From: Candidatus Omnitrophota bacterium
Lineage (GTDB): Bacteria; Omnitrophota; Gorgyraeia; 2-01-FULL-45-10
Assembly (NCBI GenBank): GCA_041650935.1
Contig: JBAZKH010000007.1
Span: 41,471 to 105,470, forward strand
DNA: 64,000 nucleotides
Direction: 5' to 3'
The position numbers and the translations under genes were made by a program. The stretch's first letter is position 1. Each line of letters begins with the position of its first letter. Positions 2,635 through 52,585 of the stretch are shown here, in pieces. The notes beneath the pieces are model-generated. The model made no database searches. It was not told where the DNA came from and saw only the letters and a program-made list of their open reading frames with translations.

Positions 2635-4272
2635 ATGATGGTCGCCACCCTCTTGCCACAACACCTTGAAGACTTCAGGAAATCCGGCATAACGGATGCG
2701 TCGGTTGCAAAATATGATATTTCGTCCGTAAGTCAAGGTGAGGCATCCGAGGCGCTTGGATTTAGGCCGCTGAGCGGTGGGTGGGCCCTCCGATATCCGG
2801 GCTCGGAATTCTTTAAGTTTAAGCCGGATACGCCGTTTAATAAAGAGACGAAGTATCTATCACCAAAAGATACGACGCAGGAGCTATTCGTAACGCATCT
2901 TGCGTCCGGCGCTCACGATGATACATCGGAGCCATATTATTTCTGCGAGGGTGAGAAGAAGTGCCTCGCGTTGGAGCAGGCCGGATACGCGGCCATAGGC
3001 GTATCGGGCGTATGGAATTGGAAATCAAGAGGCCATATCAATGAGTACTTGAGCCAGATCAATCTGATGGGCCGAGAGTGCTACATAATCTTTGATAGCG
3101 ACAAATGTTTTAACGGTCATGTGAAAACTGCGGAAAAGAGATTTGCCGAGGCGCTTACTTCTCTTGGTGCGAAGGTGAAGATTGTTAATCTTGATCCTGA
3201 ATTCGGCAAAGGAGCCGATGATCAGCTATTGCGTCTCGGAATAGCTGATTTTCGATACTATATCGATGAGGCACAAGATTACGGCCCGGGCCTTAAATAT
3301 GAGATTCCGCAATTACCTCCCGTTTCACTGCCTCAATTTTTAGCCAAAGACATACCGCCGGTAGAATATTATGTCCGCGGCCTACTTTCAAAACAGGGTA
3401 AGACCATGATCTCTGCTCAGGCGAACATCGGTAAATCCCTATTTGTTCAAAATCTCTCAATTGCCATAGCTTTGGGCAAGGCAAAGGCATTAGATAAATT
3501 CGATGTTACGCACGCGAAGGTCCTGTATTTGGATCTTGAGATGGGCGAGTCTGCGCTGATGCAGCGTTACCAAATTTTATGTAAAGACGAACCGACAAAG
3601 GCACCGGACCTATTCGTCAAATATATCCCAGCTCCTGATTTTCTTGATAGGGAGTTTCAAGCTACTCTGGAGAATTGGCTGACCACACGCAGTATCAACG
3701 TGCTTATCATCGATCCGCTCGGCAATGCTTGGTCAGGTGATGAGAACGATAAGCAAGAAGTCGGACAGCTGACAGCATATCTCAATACGCTGATCGCTAA
3801 GCATCAGATATCGATTCTGGCAGTGCATCACTGGCGCAAGGCCTCGAAGGATTTTAAGGCAGGCGGTGAGATGGCCGCCGGTAGCTACAAATGGGCCGCA
3901 TGGCTTGATTATCATGTGACGCTGGCCGGTGCGCCGGATAGCATAACCATAACCTGCGAAAAAAGCCGGCATGGTATGAGATTTAAGCCATTTCTGGCGA
4001 AAATCAATACCAATACTCTGCAATTCGAATATCTTACCGATTTTGAGAAGAAATTCACCCAAGACACACTGGCTCAGCTATTCGATGACTTCAGAGCCGA
4101 CCGAGTGTCCATTCCCGGCCTGATAAACCACGCCAAGGAAAAGAAATCCGGCTCTGAAAAAACCATAAGGAAACTTATAGCCGAAAGCGCCGCATTCGAG
4201 ATCGACAAGACGGGCAAAACTCATTATTTAGTCAAAAAACAGGGGTTATTCGATGAAACAGACCTCACTTAA
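2635..4272 (+). CDS. primase-helicase of a mobile element (N-terminal TOPRIM/DUF3854-like, C-terminal RepA-like AAA_25 P-loop)
   Basis: YYFCEGEKKCLALEQAGYAAIGVSG and IIFDSD (TOPRIM). AQANIGKS (Walker A) and VLIIDPLGN (Walker B). Confidence 0.7.
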   Translation: MMVATLLPQHLEDFRKSGITDASVAKYDISSVSQGEASEALGFRPLSGGWALRYPGSEFFKFKPDTPFNKETKYLSPKDTTQELFVTHLASGAHDDTSEPYYFCEGEKKCLALEQAGYAAIGVSGVWNWKSRGHINEYLSQINLMGRECYIIFDSDKCFNGHVKTAEKRFAEALTSLGAKVKIVNLDPEFGKGADDQLLRLGIADFRYYIDEAQDYGPGLKYEIPQLPPVSLPQFLAKDIPPVEYYVRGLLSKQGKTMISAQANIGKSLFVQNLSIAIALGKAKALDKFDVTHAKVLYLDLEMGESALMQRYQILCKDEPTKAPDLFVKYIPAPDFLDREFQATLENWLTTRSINVLIIDPLGNAWSGDENDKQEVGQLTAYLNTLIAKHQISILAVHHWRKASKDFKAGGEMAAGSYKWAAWLDYHVTLAGAPDSITITCEKSRHGMRFKPFLAKINTNTLQFEYLTDFEKKFTQDTLAQLFDDFRADRVSIPGLINHAKEKKSGSEKTIRKLIAESAAFEIDKTGKTHYLVKKQGLFDETDLT

Positions 4273-4384
4273 TCATGGCATCGTGGTAATCGCCCTTATT
4301 GGCACAATGTTGTATTCGGGATTGCCGATGTTGGCAATCGTAGTAAAAGGGGTATTGGTATGATTTCCCATGTAAAACGTATTT

Positions 4385-4424
4385 GTGCAAGAATAACGCA
4401 CCATAAAGTGCGGTATTCTTGCAC
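4385..4424. promoter_or_regulatory. 17-bp near-perfect inverted repeat (GTGCAAGAATAACGCAC n6 GTGCGGTATTCTTGCAC), candidate operator/ori element
   Basis: 16 of 17 positions are complementary. It lies in the primase-xis spacer together with CGTGGTAAT direct repeats and ATCGTGGT/ACCACGAT inverted repeats. Confidence 0.35.
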
Positions 4425-4505
4425 CGATACTGTCGATCGTGGCATTGTGGTAATGGTATATAAGACGGGGACGATTGTTTACCACGATTTTGGCGAGGGC
4501 CAGCC

Positions 4506-4685
4506 ATGACAAAATTGCTCTCGCCTCAAGAATTGTCAGACGTTTTAAGTATAAGCATCGAGACCGTCTATGCGTGGACGTCTCAGAAGAGGATCCCATA
4601 CATCAAGATGGGCAGGCTTGTCCGGTTCAATGCGGATGAGGTGAATAAGTGGCTCGAAAGGCAGAGGGTGGAGGCACAGGAATGA
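4506..4685 (+). CDS. AlpA/Xis-family helix-turn-helix protein (59 aa; below the ORF-track size cutoff)
   Basis: ATG..TGA ORF translating to MTKLLSPQELSDVLSISIETVYAWTSQKRIPYIKMGRLVRFNADEVNKWLERQRVEAQE (AlpA/excisionase HTH pattern). It lies immediately upstream of the integrase. Confidence 0.6.
   Translation: MTKLLSPQELSDVLSISIETVYAWTSQKRIPYIKMGRLVRFNADEVNKWLERQRVEAQE
4641..4671 (+). repeat. 31-bp direct repeat copy 1 (3' end of the xis-like gene)
   Basis: GTGAATAAGTGGCTCGAAAGGCAGAGGGTGG. It is 30/31 identical to 4976-5006. Confidence 0.7.
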
Positions 4686-4692
4686 GATTGCT

Positions 4693-4965
4693 TTGGCCGC
4701 TTCGCGGCCTCGCAATGACGGGGAAAAATGGGACAGTCCCAATCAGCAGATTTGTTCTGCGATACTGAGGTTTCTGGCGATACTGATGTTTTGCAAACAA
4801 AAGGGGGTGGGTATGAAGAAGGGGTGGAATAAGGCATTTAAAAGAATACTGGCTCAAGCCGACCAGGAGCTTAAAGAGTTTGAGCGGAGCTGGGATGCCA
4901 CGCTTCAAAGGCTGGCGGACGAGTGGAATAAGGTAGCCGATGCAAGAGATAAAGAAGGGCGTTGA
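4693..4965 (+). CDS. hypothetical small protein (possibly a diverged xis paralog; start uncertain)
   Basis: The ORF C-terminus RLADEWNKVADARDKEGR parallels xis ADEVNKWLERQR. Weak. Confidence 0.25.
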   Translation: MAASRPRNDGEKWDSPNQQICSAILRFLAILMFCKQKGVGMKKGWNKAFKRILAQADQELKEFERSWDATLQRLADEWNKVADARDKEGR

Positions 4966-4975
4966 TAGTTAAATC

Positions 4976-5006
4976 GTGAATAAGTGGCTCGAAAGACAGA
5001 GGGTGG
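4976..5006 (+). repeat. 31-bp direct repeat copy 2
   Basis: GTGAATAAGTGGCTCGAAAGACAGAGGGTGG. It would encode VNKWLERQRV if read in frame (a xis 3' remnant). Confidence 0.7.
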
Positions 5007-5024
5007 CGCCGGGCGATTAACTAC

Positions 5025-5054
5025 TTGCCAACCCTCACAAAATATGGCTATATA
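5025..5054 (+). promoter_or_regulatory. sigma70-like promoter for int (TTGCCA n18 TATATA)
   Basis: The -10 box ends 8 nt before the ATG, implying a leaderless or very short leader. Confidence 0.35.
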
Positions 5055-5062
5055 CCAACACT

Positions 5063-6133
5063 ATGATATATAAACGGGGCAAAATCTGGTACATAGGGTT
5101 TTCCGTTAACGGACGCTTGATACGAGAAGCGGTCGGAGAGTCGCGGAAATTCGCCGAGCTCGTCCTTGGCAAGAAACGGGCCGAGGTAAGAGAGGGGCGT
5201 TTCCTTGATGTCAAGAAACACGCGAAGATCAGGTTTGAAGATTTTGCGGATGAGTACTTAGAGACGCACTCTAAGCTCAAAAAATCATATTATACAGACT
5301 GTAAAATCGCGGGGCTTCTTAAAAAGTTTTTCGGCGGGAAGTGTCTGCATGAAATAACCTCATTAGATATCGAAAAGTTTAAGACAAGCCGTATCAAAGA
5401 AGTCAAACCTGCAACGGTAAATAGGGCCTTAGCGGTCCTGAAATCGATGTTCAATAAAGCTATTGCATGGGGCAAGGCCGATAGCAATCCCTTTAAGGCA
5501 GTTAAATTGTTTAAAGAAAACAATCAAAGACTACGCTTCCTTGAGCGAGAGGACATTCCCAAGCTACTAGCCAATTGCTGTTTGCATCTTAAACCGATAG
5601 TGATATTAGCCCTAAATACCGGCATGAGAAAGGGAGAGATCCTGGGCCTCAAATGGCATAATATAGACTTCAAAAGAGATACGATCCATTTGCATGATAC
5701 TAAAAGCGGAGAGGGCAGAGATGTGCCTCTTAACGCTGCGGCCAAGAAGGCTTTGATAGCGGTTCCGAAGCATCCAGGCTCACCATATATATTTAATGAT
5801 AACAATGGTAATAATTACGGGGATATAAAGAAATCTTTCTTGACCGCCGTGAAAAAATCGGATATAATTGACTTTCACTTTCACGATCTTAGGCACACAT
5901 TCGCGTCACAGCTTGTTATGGCCGGAGTGGATTTGAATACTGTCAGGGAGTTGTTAGGTCATAAGAGCATCGAAATGACATTGAGATATTCTCATCTGTC
6001 CCCGGATCATAAAAAGCGGGCGGTCGATGTGTTAGGCGGGCGAATTAGCACAAATATAGCACAAACGCCCGCGGTTGACGACACGGAAAAATTGGCAGTG
6101 TCGCAACTCATTGAAAATACGGTAGTTACGTAG
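5063..6133 (+). CDS. int: tyrosine recombinase / phage-type integrase
   Basis: N-terminal SAM-like domain. C-terminal HDLRHTFAS...LLGHKSIEMTLRYSHL catalytic motifs (R..HxxR..Y). Confidence 0.85.
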   Translation: MIYKRGKIWYIGFSVNGRLIREAVGESRKFAELVLGKKRAEVREGRFLDVKKHAKIRFEDFADEYLETHSKLKKSYYTDCKIAGLLKKFFGGKCLHEITSLDIEKFKTSRIKEVKPATVNRALAVLKSMFNKAIAWGKADSNPFKAVKLFKENNQRLRFLEREDIPKLLANCCLHLKPIVILALNTGMRKGEILGLKWHNIDFKRDTIHLHDTKSGEGRDVPLNAAAKKALIAVPKHPGSPYIFNDNNGNNYGDIKKSFLTAVKKSDIIDFHFHDLRHTFASQLVMAGVDLNTVRELLGHKSIEMTLRYSHLSPDHKKRAVDVLGGRISTNIAQTPAVDDTEKLAVSQLIENTVVT

Positions 6134-6136
6134 TTT

Positions 6137-6212
6137 GCCCGCATAGCTCAATTGGCAGAGCAGGACACTCTTAATGTCAAGGTTCCAAGTTCGATTCTTG
6201 GTGCGGGCACCA
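6137..6212 (+). tRNA. tRNA-Lys (anticodon CTT)
   Basis: Cloverleaf folded by hand: acceptor GCCCGCA/TGCGGGC, D stem GCTC/GAGC, anticodon loop CTCTTAA, T stem CCAAG/CTTGG, encoded CCA. Confidence 0.85.
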
Positions 6213-6248
6213 TGTCAGTTAGACTGTAATGACAAATGTCAAAATCTA

Positions 6249-6290
6249 AATGACAAATCAATCTTTAAATGACCAATATTTAAAGATTTG
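6249..6290 (+). repeat. hairpin element family A/B, copy A (CAAATC stem, 25-nt loop, GATTTG)
   Basis: 36/42 identical to 38256-38297. It is preceded by two more AATGACAAAT copies at 6228-6258. Confidence 0.6.
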
Positions 6291-6310
6291 TTATTGTGAT
6301 TTTACAAAAT

Positions 6311-6385
6311 GCGGCGGTAATTCAGTGGTAGAATGCGACCTTGCCAAGGTCGATGTCGTGGGTTCGAAACCCATCCGCCGCTCCA
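6311..6385 (+). tRNA. tRNA-Gly (anticodon GCC)
   Basis: Acceptor GCGGCGG/CCGCCGC, anticodon stem CGACC/GGTCG, loop TTGCCAA, T loop TTCGAAA, encoded CCA. Confidence 0.85.
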
Positions 6386-6419
6386 TTCTACGCTAGAGAA
6401 AACAGGAGGCGCTACCCAT

Positions 6420-6884
6420 ATGAAGATTATGGAATTCTTGAGTAAAAAAGCTATCACCGCCAGTCTTAAGGCTTCGGACAAGGAAGGCGTTATCAGGGAG
6501 ATGGTTGACCTTCTTGCTAAAGCCGACGAGATCAAGAACAAGGAAGATCTGGTCAAAGCCCTTCTGGTAAGGGAGTCGCTGGGCTCGACCGGAATAGGCC
6601 AGGGCATCGGCATACCTCATGCGAAGTCACCCAATGCGAAGAATCTTGTGGCCGCGTTCGGTTTGTCCCAAAAAGGAGTAAACTTCGATTCTCTCGACGG
6701 GGAATCGGTTTATATATTTTTCTTATTGATAGCTCCCGAAGAGTCCGCAGGCCCCCACCTGAAAGCGCTTGCCAGGATATCCCGCATGCTGAAGGATAAA
6801 TATTTTAGAGAGATGCTGAAAAAGGCCAAAGACGAAAAAGAGATACTTCGCATAATTCAAGAAGAAGATTCGAAGAAGTACTAG
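6420..6884 (+). CDS. ptsN: PTS EIIA-Ntr (nitrogen regulatory IIA protein)
   Basis: GIGQGIGIPHAKS phosphorylation-site motif. AGGAGG ribosome-binding site. The ORF-track start at 6333 overlaps tRNA-Gly and is rejected. Confidence 0.75.
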   Translation: MKIMEFLSKKAITASLKASDKEGVIREMVDLLAKADEIKNKEDLVKALLVRESLGSTGIGQGIGIPHAKSPNAKNLVAAFGLSQKGVNFDSLDGESVYIFFLLIAPEESAGPHLKALARISRMLKDKYFREMLKKAKDEKEILRIIQEEDSKKY

Positions 6885-25173: not shown

Positions 25174-25215
25174 AGTGAAGCTCCACCGCCTTATTAGCGG
25201 CGGCTTCTTTTTTTA
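25174..25215. repeat. palindromic terminator-like element, copy 1
   Basis: AGTGAAGCTCCACCGCCTTATTAGCGGCGGCTTCTTTTTTTA. Its reverse complement recurs at 34513-34554 with 1 mismatch. Confidence 0.6.
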
Positions 25216-25346
25216 CAGGGTTTCTCTCTTTCGGCTGCGCGAAACCCTGAACCGAAAGCCATTCTCACCACGTCTTTACAGGCATGGCTTTCTGGTTCAT
25301 GGGTAAAACTTATTACGCTGCCATATCCGTGAATAGATCGATTTGT

Positions 25347-25364
25347 TTCCACCCCGGGGTGGAA
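25347..25364. repeat. 18-bp perfect palindrome TTCCACCCCGGGGTGGAA
   Basis: An identical copy sits inside comEC at 50737-50754. Confidence 0.7.
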
Positions 25365-25447
25365 TAACACCGAAAAAATACTGAGGAATGATGTTGCAAA
25401 GTATATTTTATTTCCATATAATAAAATCAAAATAAGGCGATATATAT

Positions 25448-30995: not shown

Positions 30996-31007
30996 GCACT
31001 CCTACAC

Positions 31008-31037
31008 GGCTCTTGCCGACGGCAAGAGCCGTTTTTA
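31008..31037 (+). terminator. intrinsic terminator (GGCTCTTGCC GAC GGCAAGAGCC followed by a T run)
   Basis: 10-bp perfect stem, 3-nt loop, then GTTTTTA. Confidence 0.75.
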
Positions 31038-45966: not shown

Positions 45967-46039
45967 CCACTCACAAAAATTACTGCATGGCTGTGCCATG
46001 TACCCGAACAAAAATTTCGATAGAAATTTTTGTGAGTGG
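45967..46039. repeat. 15-bp perfect inverted repeat (CCACTCACAAAAATT / AATTTTTGTGAGTGG) with a 43-nt spacer containing the CATGGC-TGT-GCCATG hairpin
   Basis: It sits directly 3' of tRNA-Ala on the minus strand. Confidence 0.6.
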
Positions 46040-46337: not shown

Positions 46338-47180
46338 ATGCGCATCGGCGTCCATGTTTCCATAGCCGGACATATTTATGAGTCCCTTGATCGGGCTCGC
46401 GCCCTCGGCTGTAATACGATGCAGATATTCAGCCGCAATCCGAGGAGCTGGCAGGTCTCCGGGCTTGCCGGGGGCGATGTCGAAGAATTCAGGCGCCTCA
46501 AGGCCGAGTACGATATAGCGCCGGTAGTTATCCATATACCTTATCTGATAAATCTCGCGACACCCGACGACACGCTATACGAAAAATCGATAGATGCGTA
46601 TATAGAAGATATAAAACGCGCCGACCTTCTCAGCGCCGAATATTTTGTAACGCATCTTGGCAGCCACGTCGGCAGCGGCGAGGATAATGGTATCAGGAGA
46701 TTTTCGGATGCGCTCAAGATGATTATAAAACGCGCCGCATCCAGGGCCATGATACTTCTGGAGAATACCGCGGGCTCGGGCGACGGTATAGGGTACAAAT
46801 TCGAGCATTTGAAACGTATAATAGAGGACCAGGATAAGCCGTCCGGCATAGGCGTTTGCCTTGATACGGCGCACACGTTTGAAGCGGGCTATGACATCAA
46901 GAGTAAGGCTGGTCTGGAAAAGACATTAAAACAATTCGATAAATTAGTCGGTATCGACCGGATCAAGGTAGTCCATTTTAACGATTCCTTGTCGGCGTTC
47001 GGGTCTCACGTCGATAGGCACAACCATGTAGGGAAGGGCAGTCTGGGGATGGCGGCGATGAAGCGTATTATCAGCCATCCGGAGCTCAAAAACGCGGCTT
47101 TCATTATGGAAACACCCAAAGAGACAGAAGACGACGATAAAAAGAATCTTGCGGCGGCAAAGAAGCTGGCAGGGGTATAA
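46338..47180 (+). CDS. nfo: endonuclease IV (AP endonuclease family 2)
   Basis: MRIGVHVSIAGH start. TIM-barrel metal-binding motifs. Confidence 0.85.
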   Translation: MRIGVHVSIAGHIYESLDRARALGCNTMQIFSRNPRSWQVSGLAGGDVEEFRRLKAEYDIAPVVIHIPYLINLATPDDTLYEKSIDAYIEDIKRADLLSAEYFVTHLGSHVGSGEDNGIRRFSDALKMIIKRAASRAMILLENTAGSGDGIGYKFEHLKRIIEDQDKPSGIGVCLDTAHTFEAGYDIKSKAGLEKTLKQFDKLVGIDRIKVVHFNDSLSAFGSHVDRHNHVGKGSLGMAAMKRIISHPELKNAAFIMETPKETEDDDKKNLAAAKKLAGV

Positions 47181-47181
47181 G

Positions 47182-49716
47182 ATGACCGACGATATACGAA
47201 CGACGGACGACGAACGACTCTATCCGTTTGGCTCAATAGAGCCCAAATGGCAGAAGTACTGGCGTGATCACAGGCTCTTCAACTGCGATACCAAAAATAC
47301 CGCGAATAAATATTACTGCCTTATGATGTTCCCGTACCCGTCGGCGGCGCTGCATGTCGGGCACGGCAGGAATTACATTATAGGCGATGTCGTCGCCCGT
47401 TATAAGATGATGCGCGGATACAATGTCCTGGCGCCGATGGGGTTCGATTCATTCGGGCTTCCGGCGGAGAATGCCGCGATCAAGGGGGGCATCCATCCGA
47501 AAACGTCTACTCTCAATAATATAAGCACGATGAAACGCCAGCTGAACCAGTGGGGCGTAGAGTACGATTGGGAAAGAGAGGTCGTATCCTGCCTTCCCGA
47601 ATATTACAAATGGACCCAGTGGATATTCGTAAAGCTTTACGAAAAGGGCCTGGCGTACAAGAAGAAGGCCTTTGTGAACTGGTGCCCTTCCTGCAAGACG
47701 GTCCTTGCCAACGAACAGGTCGTAAACGGCGGGTGCGAACGCTGTTCCACCGAGGTTACTCAAAAAGAGCTCGAGCAGTGGTTCTTCAAAATAACCGATT
47801 ACGCCGAAAGGCTCTTGAAGGACCTGGGCAAACTTACCGAGTGGCCGGAACGTGTCAAGACGATGCAGGCCAACTGGATAGGCAGGTCCGAAGGCGTCGA
47901 AATAGACTTTAAGATCGACGCTCAGGCGGAGCGGCTCAAATGTTTTACCACGCGGGTCGATACTATTTACGGCGCCACATTCATAGCGCTTGCCCCCGAG
48001 CATCCTCTTGTCGAAAGGCTGTTGAAAGGGTGCGGGGATGAGCTGTCCGCGTTCAAGGCCGTGCGTAAGATGCGCGACGAGTCCAGGATAACGCGCTCTC
48101 AGACTGAAGTCGAAAAGGAGGGCGTATTTACCGGAAAGTATGTAATAAATCCGGTGAACGGACGGAAGATCCCGATATGGATCGCTAATTACATACTTAT
48201 GGAATACGGCACGGGCGCGATAATGGCGGTTCCAGCCCATGACCAGCGTGATTTTGATTTCGCGAAGCAATATAAGCTTCCCATCGAGGTAGTTATAGAT
48301 AACCCGGCGGCCTCACTTGACCCGGCCGCAATGAAAGAGGCCTATGTCGCGGAAGGCGTGATGGTCAATTCGGCGCAGTTTAACGGGCTTAAGTCGCAGG
48401 ATGCCATTAAGACTATAACCGGATTTTTCGAAGAGCGGAAGTTCGGTAAAAGGACGGTGCAGTATAAACTTAGGGATTGGCTCATCTCCAGACAGAGATA
48501 TTGGGGCGCTCCCATACCTGTGATCTATTGTCCTGAATGCGGCGCCGTAGCGGTGCCGGATAAAGAGCTTCCGGTCCTTTTGCCCGGGGATGTGGAATTC
48601 AGGCCGACCGGCGAATCGCCATTGAAGTTCGTTAAAAGTTTCGTGGATACCAGGTGTCCAAAATGCCATTCTCCCGCCCAGCGCGAAACGGATACGATGG
48701 ATACTTTTGTCGACTCGAGCTGGTATTTCCTGCGCTATATAACCCCGCGCACCGGCGATAAGCCTTTCGATCCGGAGCTTGTCAATAAGTGGCTGCCCGT
48801 GGACCAGTATATCGGCGGCATAGAACATGCGATCCTGCACCTTTTATACTCACGTTTTATAACCAAATTTTTGCGTGACATAGGTGTTATAAATTTCGAT
48901 GAACCATTCAAGAACCTTTTCACCCAGGGCATGATAATAAAAGACGGCGCGAAGATGTCGAAGTCCAAAGGGAATGTCGTTTCGCCCGACGCATTGATCG
49001 CCGCTTACGGCGCCGATACCATCAGGCTCTATACGCTCTTCATCGGCCCTCCGGAGAAAGACGCGGAATGGTCGGATCGCGGCGTAGAGGGAGCGTACCG
49101 CTTCCTGGGCAGAGTTTGGCGGTTGGTAGAGAAGGTCCATGGTGAAAAAAAAGTTATCCACAGCAGTAGGGCAGGTTTAAACCTGCCCTACAATGTGGAT
49201 AACTTGTCGTCAAAAGACAGTCAGGACTTGCGGCGCAAAACACACCAGACGATAAAGAAAGTTACCGAAGACCTCGACGGGGGATTTCATTTTAATACGG
49301 CGATAAGCGCGATAATGGAGCTTGTGAATCAGACGTATGATAGTGTAGTCCATGGTCCGCAGTCTGAGGATAATGTTGTCAATGAGGCGGTGGAAACTAT
49401 AGTAATACTGCTTTCTCCGTTCGTCCCCCACATAGCCGAGGAGATGTGGCAGCGGCTCGGTAAAGAGAGTACCATCTTTAAAAGCAAATGGCCCTCCTAC
49501 GATAAGGCCGCGATCGTCGAGAATGTGCTGACTATACCCGTCCAGGTGAACGGCAAGCTTCGCTCAAAAGTAGAGGTTCCTGCCGGGATAGATAATGACT
49601 CGCTCAAGGAGCGCGTCATGGCCGACCCGAAAGTGAAGAGCTGGACGGCCGGCAAGACGGTCAAAGATTTCATAATAATTCCCAAAAAACTGGTCAGTAT
49701 AGTGGTCTCCGGATAA
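47182..49716 (+). CDS. leuS: leucyl-tRNA synthetase
   Basis: HVGHGRNY (HIGH) and KMSKS motifs. Start at MTDDIRT. Confidence 0.95.
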   Translation: MTDDIRTTDDERLYPFGSIEPKWQKYWRDHRLFNCDTKNTANKYYCLMMFPYPSAALHVGHGRNYIIGDVVARYKMMRGYNVLAPMGFDSFGLPAENAAIKGGIHPKTSTLNNISTMKRQLNQWGVEYDWEREVVSCLPEYYKWTQWIFVKLYEKGLAYKKKAFVNWCPSCKTVLANEQVVNGGCERCSTEVTQKELEQWFFKITDYAERLLKDLGKLTEWPERVKTMQANWIGRSEGVEIDFKIDAQAERLKCFTTRVDTIYGATFIALAPEHPLVERLLKGCGDELSAFKAVRKMRDESRITRSQTEVEKEGVFTGKYVINPVNGRKIPIWIANYILMEYGTGAIMAVPAHDQRDFDFAKQYKLPIEVVIDNPAASLDPAAMKEAYVAEGVMVNSAQFNGLKSQDAIKTITGFFEERKFGKRTVQYKLRDWLISRQRYWGAPIPVIYCPECGAVAVPDKELPVLLPGDVEFRPTGESPLKFVKSFVDTRCPKCHSPAQRETDTMDTFVDSSWYFLRYITPRTGDKPFDPELVNKWLPVDQYIGGIEHAILHLLYSRFITKFLRDIGVINFDEPFKNLFTQGMIIKDGAKMSKSKGNVVSPDALIAAYGADTIRLYTLFIGPPEKDAEWSDRGVEGAYRFLGRVWRLVEKVHGEKKVIHSSRAGLNLPYNVDNLSSKDSQDLRRKTHQTIKKVTEDLDGGFHFNTAISAIMELVNQTYDSVVHGPQSEDNVVNEAVETIVILLSPFVPHIAEEMWQRLGKESTIFKSKWPSYDKAAIVENVLTIPVQVNGKLRSKVEVPAGIDNDSLKERVMADPKVKSWTAGKTVKDFIIIPKKLVSIVVSG

Positions 49717-49719
49717 ACG

Positions 49720-50088
49720 ATGAAACTAGAACGCCCCGAAAGGATCATATTGGTATTTCTCACCGGGGCGCTTATTTTAGGGATAACGGTCTCGGCCATC
49801 CGGAAGATTAAATCACCCGCCGCGGTAACGATCGAAAAATTCGATACCGAAAGTTACAAGGAACCTGCTGCCTCTATACCCGGCGCCCCGGTCGAAAAGA
49901 TAGACATAAATGTCGCCGGCCGGGAAGAATTCGAAAAGATAAAGGGTATAGGCAAGACGATTGCCGGCCGGATAGTGGAATACCGCTACCGGAACGGGCC
50001 GTTCGATTCGATCGACGAGCTGAAGAACGTGAAGGGCCTGGGCGCTGCGCTCTTCGAGAAGATAAAAGATAGAATAAAAGTTGAATAA
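49720..50088 (+). CDS. comEA: competence protein ComEA (HhH DNA-binding)
   Basis: IDINVAGREEFEKIKGIGKTIAGRIVEYR...LKNVKGLG. Confidence 0.75.
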   Translation: MKLERPERIILVFLTGALILGITVSAIRKIKSPAAVTIEKFDTESYKEPAASIPGAPVEKIDINVAGREEFEKIKGIGKTIAGRIVEYRYRNGPFDSIDELKNVKGLGAALFEKIKDRIKVE

Positions 50089-50092
50089 CAGC

Positions 50093-52585
50093 ATGAACCC
50101 TGAGCAAGGTCGAGGCATGAAGCGCCCCGCTCTATACATCCTCATCCCGTTTTGCCTGGGAATAGCGTTCGCGGGATTAGTTAAACCGCCGATACTTTTC
50201 GTTCTTCTTTCAGCCGCTATTTTTGTCATTGCCGCAATAATTTTTTCCGCGCGCAATACCATCTCGCATATAATGCTTTTTCTGGGAGTCTTTTTTACGG
50301 GCGCCAGCCTGTATCTGAATTCTAGTATCCTTCCGGCCGATCACATATCAAGATTTATCGCCGCCGGCGGTAAAAGTACCGTCGCTATAAAAGGTACGGT
50401 TGCAGACGACCCGATTACCGCCGTCACATCGTATAGGACGATTAAGACGAGCTTTACGCTTAAGGCGAGCGCTGTCAAATACATGCTTCCCGGGCAGGAT
50501 ATTTTTTCCGGGTGGCGTAATACCCGGGGGTTAGTGAAGGTCAGCCTCTTCTCGCGGAGCGCCCCCCGCGTCTTATTTGGCGATGAAGTTGTCGTCGAGG
50601 GTGAGCTTGCAAAGCCGTATAGCTTAAATAACCCCGGGCTATTTAGTTATGCCGGGTATCTTGAGTTAAAGGATATTTATTGCTGTTTTACGGTGAAAGA
50701 CGGGGACAGCCTTATTCCATCCCGGGGTGTAAAAATTTCCACCCCGGGGTGGAAATCAGCGGCATACAGGGTCCGGCGCGGCATCAGGGCTTCGATAGAC
50801 GAATATTTGGATATGCCCTATAGCGGTTTCCTGAAAGCCATACTTATAGGCGACAGGAGTACTTTAAAAGACAGGATACGCGATGACTTTGTCCATACCG
50901 GCACGGTCCACATACTGGCTATAAGCGGTCTCAATATCGGGTTGATAGCGGCCGTATTTATGACGGTATTCGCATTTTGCGGTGCGCCGAAGAAGATCAA
51001 CCTTGCCGTTACGATGCCACTCCTCATTTTATACTATTTTATCGGCGGTTCGAACCCGCCGATATTGAGGGCGGTCATAATGTTTGCCATTTGTGCCGTC
51101 GGATATATAATAAATAGGGATACAGATGTTTTGAATTCTCTCGCCATTGCTGCGCTCGCGATACTTTTATGGAACCCGAAAGAACTGTATGACCCCAGTT
51201 TCCAGTTGTCGTTTGCCTCTGTAGCAGGGATCTTGATATTCAGCTCCAGGATAGAGGCGGCGCTTCTTTCTGCCGTGCCGGAAGAAAGGCGGCGGAAGGG
51301 GTGGGGCAGGGTTTTAAGGTACATCGCCGCCGGCGTTGCGGTATCGGTTGCGGCGTGGCTGGGAACTTTCCCCATAATTGCCGCATATTTTAACATCGTC
51401 TCACCGGTCTCCGTTATCGCCAATCTGATAGTTGTCCCGGTCCTCTTTTTTCTTATGGCCTCAGCGTTCGTATTTCTCGCGCTATCTTTTACGTTTGCCT
51501 ATGCCGCCGCCGGCCTTGCGCACGTTTTGCAATTAACCGAGAAGATGCTCTTTGTCGTGAACGGATTTCTGGCTGCCGTGCCTTTCGCGTTCTTCCGGAC
51601 CGCCGCCCCGTCACCCGGATTTACGTTTTTATTTTACGGCGCGGTCTCTCTTCTGGTAATGCCCGCGTCTTTTACATTTAAAAACTTCAGGATAAAAAAG
51701 ACGCTTATCGTTATCATTATCCTCGCGCTATTTAACATTCAGGTATGGTCATCCGTCCTGTCCGGCAGGGCGGACGGCGCCCGGATAACATTTTTCGATG
51801 TCGGGCAGGGAGACGCCGCGTTTTTGGAGTTTCCCGACGGAAATATCCTTCTAGACGGCGGTTCGGGCGGCATCGATGAGAAGCTTGATATGGGCGAGTC
51901 CGTCATCGCGCCGTCTTTGTGGAACCGCGGAATAAAGCGGATCGATCTTTTGATGATTACGCATCTTCACGAGGATCATCTGGGAGGCATACTGTATATC
52001 CTGAAAAATTTTGCCGTAGGATGCGTGATCGATAATGGCGCATACGCGGACGCCGGAGGCGGCGTATATGAAGAATACCGGCGCATTATCAGGAAGAAAA
52101 ATATCCGCCGGATCGCGGCGCGGGAAGGGGATATCGTAAAAGCCTTTCAAGATGTCCGGGTATTTGTTTTAAACCCCGCGCGGAGCGATAAAATTTTGAC
52201 GGATTCCAACGACAACTCTCTTGTTCTCAAGATTGCATACCGGAATTATACTTTCCTTGTCTGCGGCGATATCAGGGAAAATGCGATATCGCGCCTCCTG
52301 CCGTATGGTAATTTTTTACGGTCCGATCTTTTGAAAGTACCTCACCATGGCGGCTTTTTGGGTAACGATAAGACCGTTGGAGAGTTCTTCCGGCTTGTCT
52401 GTCCGCGCATTTCCGTGATAAGTGTCGGAGCTTCGAATAAGTACGGCATGCCGTCGCGAAAGACTTTAAGGGCCATAGCCGATTCGAAGTCGGACATTTA
52501 TATGACAAAGGATAGCGGTGCCATAGAGATAAATGTTTCTTCCGGGCAAGAGAAAGTAAGGGAAGCAATTCTTAAGAAAAACTAG
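50093..52585 (+). CDS. comEC: ComEC/Rec2 DNA internalisation channel with a C-terminal metallo-beta-lactamase domain
   Basis: Polytopic Competence domain. HLHEDHLGG. Confidence 0.8.
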   Translation: MNPEQGRGMKRPALYILIPFCLGIAFAGLVKPPILFVLLSAAIFVIAAIIFSARNTISHIMLFLGVFFTGASLYLNSSILPADHISRFIAAGGKSTVAIKGTVADDPITAVTSYRTIKTSFTLKASAVKYMLPGQDIFSGWRNTRGLVKVSLFSRSAPRVLFGDEVVVEGELAKPYSLNNPGLFSYAGYLELKDIYCCFTVKDGDSLIPSRGVKISTPGWKSAAYRVRRGIRASIDEYLDMPYSGFLKAILIGDRSTLKDRIRDDFVHTGTVHILAISGLNIGLIAAVFMTVFAFCGAPKKINLAVTMPLLILYYFIGGSNPPILRAVIMFAICAVGYIINRDTDVLNSLAIAALAILLWNPKELYDPSFQLSFASVAGILIFSSRIEAALLSAVPEERRRKGWGRVLRYIAAGVAVSVAAWLGTFPIIAAYFNIVSPVSVIANLIVVPVLFFLMASAFVFLALSFTFAYAAAGLAHVLQLTEKMLFVVNGFLAAVPFAFFRTAAPSPGFTFLFYGAVSLLVMPASFTFKNFRIKKTLIVIIILALFNIQVWSSVLSGRADGARITFFDVGQGDAAFLEFPDGNILLDGGSGGIDEKLDMGESVIAPSLWNRGIKRIDLLMITHLHEDHLGGILYILKNFAVGCVIDNGAYADAGGGVYEEYRRIIRKKNIRRIAAREGDIVKAFQDVRVFVLNPARSDKILTDSNDNSLVLKIAYRNYTFLVCGDIRENAISRLLPYGNFLRSDLLKVPHHGGFLGNDKTVGEFFRLVCPRISVISVGASNKYGMPSRKTLRAIADSKSDIYMTKDSGAIEINVSSGQEKVREAILKKN
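50716..50754. repeat. tandem palindromes TTCCATCCCGGGGTGTAA + TTCCACCCCGGGGTGGAA inside comEC (in frame)
   Basis: Encodes IPSRGVKISTPGWKS in the ComEC linker. The second copy is identical to 25347-25364. Confidence 0.7.

What the first reader, a model, noticed from the sequence alone, without database searches (positions are those of the whole stretch)
50716..50754. 18-bp perfect palindrome duplicated in tandem inside comEC, in frame, with an identical intergenic copy
TTCCACCCCGGGGTGGAA occurs at 25347-25364 (the structured 310-bp region upstream of the NSS transporter) and at 50737-50754. It is preceded by a degenerate copy TTCCATCCCGGGGTGTAA (50716-50733). The intragenic pair translates to IPSRGVKISTPGWKS in the ComEC linker between the N-terminal domain and the Competence domain. 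An exact 18-bp palindrome is improbable by chance, and a shared intergenic/intragenic copy suggests a small mobile or recombination-associated palindromic element that inserted without breaking the reading frame. The CCCGGG core is also a SmaI/XmaI-type restriction site.
Basis: seen in the sequence. Interest (0 to 1): 0.55.

Follow-up and report, generated by a model that had tools for sequence, protein, structure and literature searches.

The report
REP-type palindrome pair inside comEC
The 18-bp palindrome is a small selfish hairpin repeat (a REP element) that in related bacteria brackets its own tyrosine transposase gene; here one pair sits in frame in a floppy linker of the ComEC protein, a known but little-studied behaviour of such repeats.

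Summary
TTCCACCCCGGGGTGGAA occurs exactly at 25347-25364 (intergenic) and 50737-50754 (in comEC). Chance expectation is 0.04 matches.

The source is a Candidatus Omnitrophota MAG. In other Omnitrophota and in CPR Beckwithbacteria genomes, two exact copies about 700 bp apart bracket a 220-aa Y1/HUH transposase. Its best matches are E. coli TnpA-REP and NCBI's REP-associated tyrosine transposase model. Other copies in those genomes stand alone or as the same "short copy + full copy" doublet seen here, often deep inside housekeeping genes (LeuRS, TsaD, RF1, IMPDH, UvrC).

I therefore read it as a REP/REPIN-type element with a RAYT-like partner.

- All three reading frames of the palindrome are open and encode Pro/Gly turns.
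- The comEC doublet encodes residues 212-226, a low-confidence loop between two domains.
- It is not a clean 13-aa insertion. The loop is only 2 aa longer than palindrome-free orthologues.
- Other Omnitrophota ComECs carry different palindromes at the same spot.
- A second family, GTAGGGCAGGTTTAAACCTGCCCTAC, sits in frame in the neighbouring LeuRS gene.
- No restriction-modification link was found.
- No RAYT was found in the roughly 80 kb of the source genome that I could read.

In-frame intragenic REPs have been described before (Di Nocera 2013).

The parts
50735..50756 (.). Full copy of the family-A palindrome inside comEC. The 18-bp core is 50737-50754, extended to a 22-bp perfect palindrome ATTTCCACCCCGGGGTGGAAAT. 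It encodes I-S-T-P-G-W-K.
   Evidence: The core is identical to the copies that bracket RAYT-like genes in L010, L017, L042, L073, L084 and L116.
50715..50732 (.). Degenerate, short copy TTCCATCCCGGGGTGTAA with core CATCCCGGGGTGT. It has 2 mismatches, one of which is a G-T wobble position. It encodes (I)-P-S-R-G-V-K in a different frame from the full copy.
   Evidence: It matches the 'short copy' of the doublet architecture seen at 13 other sites.
50715..50756 (+). The two copies taken as one composite doublet (REPIN-like), laid out as [short copy]-AAAAAT-[full copy]. As a single strand it can fold either as two small hairpins or as one 15-bp stem.
   Evidence: RNA minimum free energy is -32.8 kcal/mol (z = -4.4) and DNA is -16.6 kcal/mol (z = -3.6). 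The same architecture occurs in CPR genes.
25347..25364 (.). Extragenic exact copy of family A. It lies between the terminator-like hairpin of the upstream gene (25186-25213) and the promoter-like site of the NSS transporter gene (25394-25422).
   Evidence: No Rfam family matches the region.
50117..52585 (+). Host gene comEC, with domains DUF4131, Competence and metallo-beta-lactamase. It is 822 aa as called, and the ORF extends back to 50081. The gene is intact, and the palindrome-encoded residues fall in the interdomain linker.
   Evidence: The AlphaFold model has mean pLDDT 80.9. Residues 214-222 are coil between strand 211-213 and helix 223-242, and the block 211-220 has pLDDT 58, the lowest in the N-terminal half after the unmodelled first ten residues.
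49166..49191 (.). Second palindrome family (B): GTAGGGCAGGTTTAAACCTGCCCTAC, a 26-bp perfect palindrome that is GTAG-tagged. It lies in frame in the LeuRS linker and encodes S-RAGLNLPY-N. It is the same phenomenon in the neighbouring gene.
50477..50533 (.). Degenerate semi-palindromes centred on CCCGGG at a second variable ComEC loop (site 1). They may be decayed family-A relics, but this is uncertain.
   Evidence: Five of the window's 17 CCCGGG sites lie in 50489-50748. In relatives, site 1 carries family B or C palindromes.

Best explanation
The palindrome is a REP-type hairpin element (repetitive 'extragenic' palindrome). Its natural partner is a RAYT-like Y1/HUH tyrosine transposase.

Shown:
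- The identical 18-mer brackets such a transposase gene in other Omnitrophota and in CPR Beckwithbacteria.
- It is otherwise scattered singly, or as a fixed doublet of a short copy plus a full copy, in intergenic DNA and deep inside conserved genes.

Inferred, by analogy with E. coli TnpA-REP and IS200/IS605 enzymes:
- The transposase recognises the folded hairpin on single-stranded DNA at replication forks.
- It cuts and rejoins next to the hairpin, spreading copies in trans without target-site duplication.

The comEC pair is one such doublet. It landed in, or took over, the linker between the OB-fold domain and the membrane domain. It persists for three reasons:
- The palindrome has no stop codon in any frame.
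- It encodes Pro/Gly-rich turn peptides (PSRGV and STPGWK).
- It lies in a loop that tolerates any sequence.

The element is most likely a selfish or neutral passenger, not a working part of ComEC. The copy at 25347 is an ordinary extragenic REP.
For: The element is real and non-random.

Transposase association:
- Exact copies 699-703 bp apart flank a 220-223 aa ORF in L010 (Omnitrophota) and L017 (Beckwithbacteria).
- The same arrangement occurs in metagenome loci L042, L073, L084, L116, L119 and L129.
- That ORF matches Pfam Y1_Tnp.
- Its best solved-structure match is 4ER8 TnpA-REP, with the HUH and catalytic Tyr motifs aligned.
- It scores 46-76 bits on NCBIfam REP_Tyr_transpos, against 19 bits on the IS200 model.
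- Relatives of this transposase are flanked by other lineage-specific hairpins, as in REPtrons.

Distribution of copies:
- Of 64 dereplicated low-GC sites, 8 are next to a RAYT, 27 are deep inside genes, 29 are elsewhere, and 13 are doublets.
- The 30 high-GC, chance-like sites have no doublets and no adjacent RAYT.
- Host genes are bona fide: LeuRS, TsaD, Sua5-TsaE, IMPDH, RF1, UvrC, FolD and GT1.
- The doublet architecture is conserved and matches the window copy.

Tolerance in ComEC:
- The loop is hypervariable among orthologues.
- It lies between Pfam domains.
- It is coil with low confidence in the model.

Prior description: in-frame intragenic REPs, single and dimeric, are documented in PMC3733652.
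Against: - No RAYT homologue is present in the 64-kb window or in about 16 kb of extra flank. The rest of the MAG could not be read, so the link to a transposase in this genome is by analogy only.
- Copy number here is low: 3 copies at 2 loci in about 80 kb.
- Family A lacks the GTAG or CGTC tag of the classic REP superfamilies.
- The RAYT-like proteins score below NCBIfam's curated cutoff of 80 bits.
- The comEC loop is only 2 aa longer than empty orthologous loops. A simple insertion does not explain this.
- Transposition activity has never been shown for this family.
Confidence: 0.75

Rival explanations
1. The intragenic hairpins are kept for a function at the nucleic-acid level, on top of or instead of being selfish. 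Candidate functions are ribosome pausing at a domain boundary, an mRNA stability or processing signal, or a replication or transposase docking site. Under this reading, selection keeps them as perfect palindromes.
For: - The family-B palindrome at the same LeuRS site differs between the window and L138 by one fully compensated pair (GGGCAGG/CCTGCCC against GGCCAGG/CCTGGCC), while the flanks are identical.
- Palindromes recur at interdomain linkers of ComEC, LeuRS and TsaD in two phyla.
- Flanking bases extend the hairpin at 55% of low-GC sites, with variable sequence.
- The doublet folds strongly.
Against: - Most orthologues lack any palindrome at these sites. L151 and L152 have empty ComEC loops. 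None of 120 LeuRS linker hits carries GLNL.
- The palindrome families at one site differ between genomes, which fits turnover of junk in permissive loops.
- Mismatch repair in a hairpin, or conversion from a master copy, could restore symmetry without selection.
- The first comEC copy is already decaying, with 2 mismatches.
Confidence: 0.1
2. The palindrome is a binding site (operator) for a host dimeric DNA-binding protein. The intergenic copy would regulate the NSS transporter promoter, and the comEC copies would be fortuitous or regulatory intragenic sites.
For: - It is a perfect dyad.
- The intergenic copy ends 30 bp upstream of a good -35/-10 promoter-like site.
- The two intragenic sites start 22 bp apart, about two helical turns.
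Against: - The same 18-mer brackets a transposase gene in two phyla and lies inside unrelated housekeeping genes.
- No conserved neighbouring regulator was seen.
- The short-plus-full doublet architecture is typical of REP dimers, not of operators.
Confidence: 0.06
3. The copies are solo ends left behind by an autonomous IS200/IS605-type insertion sequence of about 700 bp, rather than independently mobile REPs.
For: The unit of hairpin, 220-aa Y1 gene and hairpin is about 700 bp, the size of IS200.
Against: - The protein scores far better on the RAYT model than on the IS200 model.
- Only one transposase-flanking pair was found in each genome, against several solo copies or doublets.
- Both flanking hairpins are identical perfect palindromes, unlike the distinct left and right ends of IS200/IS605 elements (the comparison with IS200/IS605 ends rests on my own knowledge).
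Confidence: 0.05
4. The palindromes are a coincidence of codon usage (Pro-Gly codons make CCCGGG) or are related to a SmaI/XmaI-type restriction-modification system.
For: - The conserved NPG motif of ComEC itself creates a CCCCGGG semi-palindrome at 50625-50645.
- The core of the palindrome is a SmaI site.
Against: - The exact 18-mer is shared with an intergenic site, where 0.04 matches are expected.
- The two copies are in different frames.
- CCCGGG is neither depleted nor enriched in the window.
- No restriction-modification gene was noticed in the parts of the window I examined.
Confidence: 0.02

Closest known systems
REP / REPIN elements with RAYT (TnpA-REP) transposases, as in E. coli, Pseudomonas and Stenotrophomonas
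   Same: - It is a short GC-rich hairpin repeat.
- Copies occur singly and as closely spaced dimers that can fold into a larger hairpin.
- The same repeat flanks a Y1/HUH transposase gene whose best structural relative is TnpA-REP. I found only one such flanked gene in each genome where I saw one.
- There is no target-site duplication.
- An extragenic copy lies between a terminator and the next promoter.
   Different: - It has no GTAG or CGTC tag.
- It is a perfect palindrome without a bulge.
- Copy number is low.
- The transposase is about 220 aa, has a C-terminal extension, and scores below NCBIfam's RAYT cutoff.
- The hosts are ultra-small Omnitrophota and CPR bacteria.
- About 40% of low-GC copies are intragenic.
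Intragenic REPs described by Di Nocera, De Gregorio and Rocco 2013 (PMC3733652), for example in Opitutus terrae, and Rickettsia palindromic elements (RPE)
   Same: - They are in-frame palindromic repeats inside genes that stay functional.
- They occur as singles and dimers.
- They are found in tRNA synthetases and in DNA repair and uptake genes.
- They lie in loops that tolerate extra residues.
   Different: - The sequence family is different.
- Here the net length change is close to zero, so it looks like replacement.
- The same sites carry different palindromes in different genomes.
- RPE-1 elements are much longer than this 18-42 bp element (my own knowledge).
IS200/IS605 insertion sequences
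   Same: - The transposase has the Y1 HUH fold.
- Hairpins lie at both ends of a unit of about 700 bp.
- The chemistry presumably acts on single-stranded DNA.
   Different: - Here the hairpins are found dispersed without the gene.
- The IS200 model scores only 19 bits.
- The two end hairpins are identical.
HIP1 (GCGATCGC), the highly iterated palindrome of cyanobacteria
   Same: It is a palindrome that is common inside coding regions.
   Different: HIP1 is 8 bp and hyper-abundant. As far as I know it has no flanked transposase and is not a stable hairpin.

Membership tests
REP / REPIN elements | A short (about 20-40 bp) sequence able to form a stable stem-loop | tested here: met
   The palindromes are 18-22 bp and perfect. 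The doublet folds at -32.8 kcal/mol as RNA and -16.6 kcal/mol as DNA, with z-scores of -4.4 and -3.6.
REP / REPIN elements | Many dispersed copies within one genome | tested here: inconclusive
   About 80 kb of the source genome holds 3 copies at 2 loci. One Beckwithbacteria genome (PCSQ01) has at least 6 exact copies.
REP / REPIN elements | The same repeat flanks a RAYT gene (a REPtron) | tested here: inconclusive
   This is met in related genomes: L010, L017, L042, L073, L084, L116, L119 and L129. It was not found in the window or in the two flanking loci I could fetch.
REP / REPIN elements | A conserved GTAG (or CGTC) tetranucleotide at one end | tested here: not met
   Family A flanks vary (ATA/TAT, ACA/TGT, AAG/CTT and others) and show no GTAG or CGTC. 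Family B at 49166 does start with GTAG.
REP / REPIN elements | Dimers of two REPs that can pair into a larger hairpin (a REPIN) | tested here: met
   The doublet [short copy]-N5-11-[full copy] occurs in the window and at 13 other sites. It folds as one 15-bp stem.
REP / REPIN elements | Extragenic location | tested here: not met
   The comEC pair is intragenic, and only the copy at 25347 is extragenic. Intragenic REPs are nevertheless documented in the literature.
RAYT (REP-associated tyrosine transposase), for the partner protein in related genomes | Y1 HUH transposase fold with HUH and catalytic Tyr motifs, closer to TnpA-REP than to IS200 TnpA | tested here: met
   Pfam PF01797 matches at E = 1e-9. 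The best solved structure is 4ER8 TnpA-REP, with HIH and Y-x-x-x-NP aligned. NF047646 scores 46-76 bits against 19 bits for NF033573 IS200.
RAYT (REP-associated tyrosine transposase), for the partner protein in related genomes | Passes the curated NCBIfam equivalog cutoff of 80 bits | tested here: not met
   All four proteins tested score below the cutoff: 63, 46.5, 75.6 and 66.7 bits. They form a distant subfamily.
MITE | Terminal inverted repeats around a non-coding body of 70-300 bp, with target-site duplications | tested here: not met
   The unit is 18-42 bp with no body, and no direct repeats are visible at the borders.
Restriction-modification target (SmaI/XmaI type) | Avoidance or other skew of the site in the genome, and a cognate restriction-modification gene | tested here: not met
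   CCCGGG occurs 17 times against 21 +/- 4.7 expected. No restriction-modification gene was noticed in the parts of the window I examined.

The most novel reading that the evidence does not exclude
The palindromes are not merely tolerated junk. Specific interdomain linkers act as landing pads where one hairpin element is exchanged for another, a hairpin-targeted 'replacement' transposition that leaves length nearly unchanged. The linkers concerned are ComEC residues about 125-147 and 195-225, the LeuRS linker before the anticodon-binding domain, and two TsaD loops. Individual copies would be kept perfectly symmetric by compensatory change or by RAYT-driven conversion. This would imply either a new insertion mechanism for Y1 transposases or a host function for an in-frame hairpin at domain boundaries. 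It would be shared, by horizontal transfer, between Omnitrophota and CPR bacteria.
Probability: 0.2. Interest if true: 0.7.

Novelty: new member of a known kind. Interest (0 to 1): 0.42.

Why it matters
The finding extends REP/RAYT systems to Omnitrophota and CPR bacteria, for which my two literature searches found no description. In these bacteria, 27 of the 64 low-GC copies sampled lie in frame inside essential genes. For annotators, the odd Pro/Gly-rich peptides (FHPGVE, STPGW, PPRGG, RxGLNLPY) in ComEC, LeuRS, TsaD and RF1 are repeat-encoded and are not functional motifs. One metagenome contig starts exactly at such a palindrome, so these repeats may also break assemblies. The recurrent occupation of the same linker by different palindromes, and the identical 18-mer in two phyla, offer a way to study how Y1 transposases choose targets and how proteins absorb foreign loops.

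Tried and rejected
- **RAYT in the source genome.** tblastn of two RAYT-like proteins against the window and against about 16 kb of extra flank found nothing. The source MAG is not among the genome-contig hits.
- **Viral contigs.** A scan for family B gave 0 hits.
- **Rfam.** The intergenic region gave only a sub-threshold chance hit.
- **Clean insertion.** I rejected this reading. The empty orthologous loops are 42 aa against 44 aa here.
- **LeuRS linker search.** The last protein search returned mostly gene fragments, and none carried the family-B peptide. It showed only that the linker is hypervariable.
- **Ruled out.** Restriction-modification, DNA-uptake-sequence, terminator (no T-run) and codon-coincidence readings were considered and set aside.
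- **P0040 DNA.** It could not be fetched because the sample has no file.
- **Other long palindromes in the window.**
  - 31006-31032 is an ordinary terminator.
  - 47626-47643 lies in the conserved FVKLYE motif of LeuRS and is compatible with chance. By my own arithmetic about 0.24 perfect 18-bp palindromes are expected per 64 kb.
Full report
**1. Observation**

The 18-mer TTCCACCCCGGGGTGGAA is present exactly at 25347-25364 and 50737-50754. With up to three mismatches there are 3 matches where 0.04 are expected, and 0 of 100 shuffles reach 3.

The intragenic perfect palindrome extends to 22 bp (50735-50756). The two intragenic copies start 22 bp apart, so they are read in different frames. 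This marks them as a DNA-level repeat, not a protein-level one. The peptide is IPSRGVKISTPGWKS, residues 212-226 of the ComEC ORF 50081..52585. It falls between Pfam DUF4131 (37-209) and Competence (254-528). The same sequence is present in two independent assemblies.

**2. Organism**

The ComEC protein is 100% identical to one from a Candidatus Omnitrophota MAG, on a contig of 112,548 bp. The next relatives are only about 59% identical.

**3. What the palindrome is**

A scan of one genome per species found the exact 18-mer in 33 stretches. By my own arithmetic about 9 would be expected by chance in 596 Gb. The hits are concentrated in Omnitrophota (L002, L010, L021, L026) and in CPR Beckwithbacteria (three genomes, up to 6 copies in one).

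In L010 (Omnitrophota) and L017 (Beckwithbacteria), two exact copies 703 and 699 bp apart bracket a 220/223-aa ORF. The evidence on this protein is:
- It matches Pfam Y1_Tnp.
- Its best solved relative is E. coli TnpA-REP (4ER8), with the HUH and catalytic-Tyr motifs aligned.
- It scores 46-76 bits on NCBIfam's REP-associated tyrosine transposase model, against 19 bits on the IS200 model. It remains below the curated 80-bit cutoff.
- The two proteins are only 36% identical to each other, yet they carry the same flanking 18-mer.
- The family has more than 1,000 members, mostly in Omnitrophota, with others labelled Endomicrobia, Elusimicrobiota, Patescibacteria and Auribacterota.
- Three relatives that I inspected are flanked by other lineage-specific hairpins: TTCCAAACCCGCATTGGAA and TACACCCGATGTA dimers. 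This is the REPtron pattern.

After dereplication there are 94 sites.

| Context of the site | Total | Next to a RAYT | Deep inside ORFs of 200 aa or more | Elsewhere | Doublets |
|---|---|---|---|---|---|
| Low GC | 64 | 8 | 27 | 29 | 13 |
| High GC (chance-like) | 30 | 0 | 16 | 14 | 0 |

The host ORFs are real genes: LeuRS, TsaD, Sua5-TsaE, IMPDH, RF1, UvrC, FolD and a GT1 glycosyltransferase.

The doublets share one architecture: a short copy (about CACCCCGGGGTG), 5-11 nt of spacer, then the full copy. The comEC pair fits it exactly, including the frames used. Compare SPRGE...HSTPGWN in a CPR LeuRS with PSRGV...STPGWK here.

Because each unit is a palindrome, the doublet can also fold into a single 15-bp stem, like a REPIN. 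The RNA fold is -32.8 kcal/mol and the DNA fold is -16.6 kcal/mol.

Flanking bases extend the palindrome by at least 2 bp at 55% of low-GC sites, where 6% is expected by chance (my arithmetic). The extending sequence varies. No target-site duplication is visible, as expected for HUH enzymes.

**4. Why it survives inside comEC**

All three frames of the 18-mer are open, and the reverse strand is identical. The frames encode FHPGVE, STPGW and PPRGG, all of them turn-forming, and all three are seen in genes.

The ComEC segment is hypervariable among 25 orthologues. In an AlphaFold model with mean pLDDT 80.9, residues 214-222 are coil between strand 211-213 and helix 223-242. The block 211-220 has pLDDT 58, the lowest in the N-terminal half after the unmodelled first ten residues. 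The rest of ComEC is intact, including the HxHxDH motif.

**5. Insertion or replacement?**

Between conserved anchors, loop lengths in the ComEC orthologues are as follows.

| Source | Loop length | Palindrome in the loop |
|---|---|---|
| Window | 44 aa | Family A doublet |
| L151 | 42 aa | None |
| L152 | 42 aa | None |
| L139 | 51 aa | GCACCTTTAAAGGTGC |
| L138 | 46 aa | Two GGGGACAGTCCCC, 16 bp apart |
| L036 | 60 aa | GTAGGGGAGGTTTAAACCTCCCCTAC plus a remnant |

The 14-codon doublet therefore stands in for about 12 ancestral codons. It is not a clean 13-aa insertion.

Among 120 ComEC homologues, peptides diagnostic of the other palindromes occur at only two loops, about residues 125-147 and 195-225. 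These are R[AG]GLNLPY at 8 sites, and GDSP or GTVP at 8. Family A occurs only in the window's protein. Site 1 of the window's own comEC (50477-50533) holds degenerate semi-palindromes centred on CCCGGG, and 5 of the window's 17 CCCGGG sites fall within 260 bp there.

A CPR TsaD loop shows the same behaviour. L051 has a family-A doublet where L102 has GTAGGAACGGTTCCTAC, with a net difference of 3 aa.

I cannot tell whether this reflects filtering by selection at a few permissive loops or true hairpin-targeted replacement. A nested insertion into the centre of the family-B palindrome in L036 LeuRS hints at targeting of hairpins.

**6. Second family in the window**

At 49166-49191, GTAGGGCAGGTTTAAACCTGCCCTAC is a 26-bp perfect palindrome with a GTAG tag. 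It lies in frame in the LeuRS linker, where it encodes RAGLNLPY. Only one of its frames is free of stop codons, which explains why the same peptide recurs.

L138 has it at the same site with identical flanks and one fully compensated pair (GGCCAGG/CCTGGCC). L139, L151 and L152 lack it. A CPR LeuRS carries a family-A doublet in the same linker.

**7. The intergenic copy**

The copy at 25347 lies between a terminator-like hairpin (25186-25213) and a TTGCAA-17-TATAAT promoter-like site (25394-25422). This is a typical REP position. No Rfam family matches the region.

**8. What is missing**

No RAYT gene was found in the window or in the additional flanks. The link to a transposase in this particular genome is therefore inferred. 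Mobility itself is inferred from the known biochemistry of TnpA-REP and IS200/IS605 enzymes, which is established knowledge and was not tested here.

**9. Comparison with what is known**

REPs, REPINs and RAYTs are well described. Di Nocera et al. 2013 (PMC3733652) report in-frame intragenic REPs, both single and dimeric. These include cases in tRNA synthetase and DNA repair genes, with the highest counts in Opitutus terrae and Rickettsia conorii. My searches found no description of such elements in Omnitrophota or CPR bacteria.

I therefore class the finding as a new member of a known kind. Its unusual traits are:
- There is no GTAG or CGTC tag.
- The palindromes are perfect.
- The transposase belongs to a distant RAYT subfamily.
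- The 18-mer is identical across two phyla.
- The intragenic fraction is high.
- Different palindromes recur at the same linker sites.

**10. Verdict**

The 'clean insertion' and restriction-site ideas are not supported. Interest is 0.42.

Noticed in passing
window 49166-49191 (LeuRS ORF 47149..49716 +); L138:3564-3589; L036:2001-2071: A second palindrome family, 26 bp and perfect, GTAGGGCAGGTTTAAACCTGCCCTAC, lies in frame in the LeuRS linker and encodes RAGLNLPY. L138 has it at the same site with identical flanks and one compensated G/C swap. L036 has the same arms, with about 45 nt of other hairpins nested at the centre.
   Followed up: partly
L036:3380-3405 and 3614-3639; L138:4874-4905, 5106-5134; L139:5104-5119; proteins P0010-P0116: Other Omnitrophota ComEC genes carry different in-frame palindromes at the same two loops, about residues 125-147 and 195-225. 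These are family B, GGGGACAGTCCCC doublets and GCACCTTTAAAGGTGC. The loops look like hot spots, and palindrome seems to replace palindrome.
   Followed up: partly
window 50477-50533 and 50489-50748: Five of the window's 17 CCCGGG sites cluster in 260 bp of comEC. Site 1 holds degenerate semi-palindromes, for example TTTCCGGGTGGCG and TAATACCCGGGGGTTA, that may be decayed family-A copies. The one at 50625-50645 comes from the conserved NPG codons.
   Followed up: partly
L102:~1440-1465 compared with L051:2322: A CPR TsaD gene has GTAGGAACGGTTCCTAC at the very loop where its orthologue carries a family-A doublet.
   Followed up: no
L035:1-26 (Logan SRR8542065 contig): This contig starts exactly at the family-B palindrome, which suggests that these repeats break metagenome assemblies.
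   Followed up: no
window ~2635-6700 (L147:11728-15832): A small island carries a DUF3854/AAA_25 protein, an HTH_17 excisionase-like protein, a phage-type integrase and a Polbeta nucleotidyltransferase. It is probably an integrated mobile element. The ENA assembly breaks at its edge. A GGGACAGTCCC core occurs at window 4730.
   Followed up: no
window 47626-47643: A perfect 18-bp palindrome, TTCGTAAAGCTTTACGAA, lies inside the conserved LeuRS motif FVKLYE. It is compatible with chance: by my arithmetic about 0.24 such palindromes are expected per window.
   Followed up: no
window 25218-25251, 31006-31032, 103-129, 46008-46033: Other hairpins were seen. CAGGGTTTC...GAAACCCTG lies in the same intergenic region as the 25347 copy. 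A 13-bp-arm hairpin followed by TTTTTAT is an ordinary terminator. Two AT-rich hairpins are also present; the one at 46008-46033 lies outside any ORF of 80 aa or more, and I did not check the context of the one at 103-129.
   Followed up: partly
P0247, P0263 (LeuRS linker peptides): The Omnitrophota LeuRS linker varies from 13 to 67 aa and often contains short tandem peptide repeats, such as VTRSQGHRVTRSPGHQ and LPVRHAGLPVRQAG. P0243 has APLKV, the peptide that GCACCTTTAAAGGTGC would encode; no DNA was checked for it.
   Followed up: no
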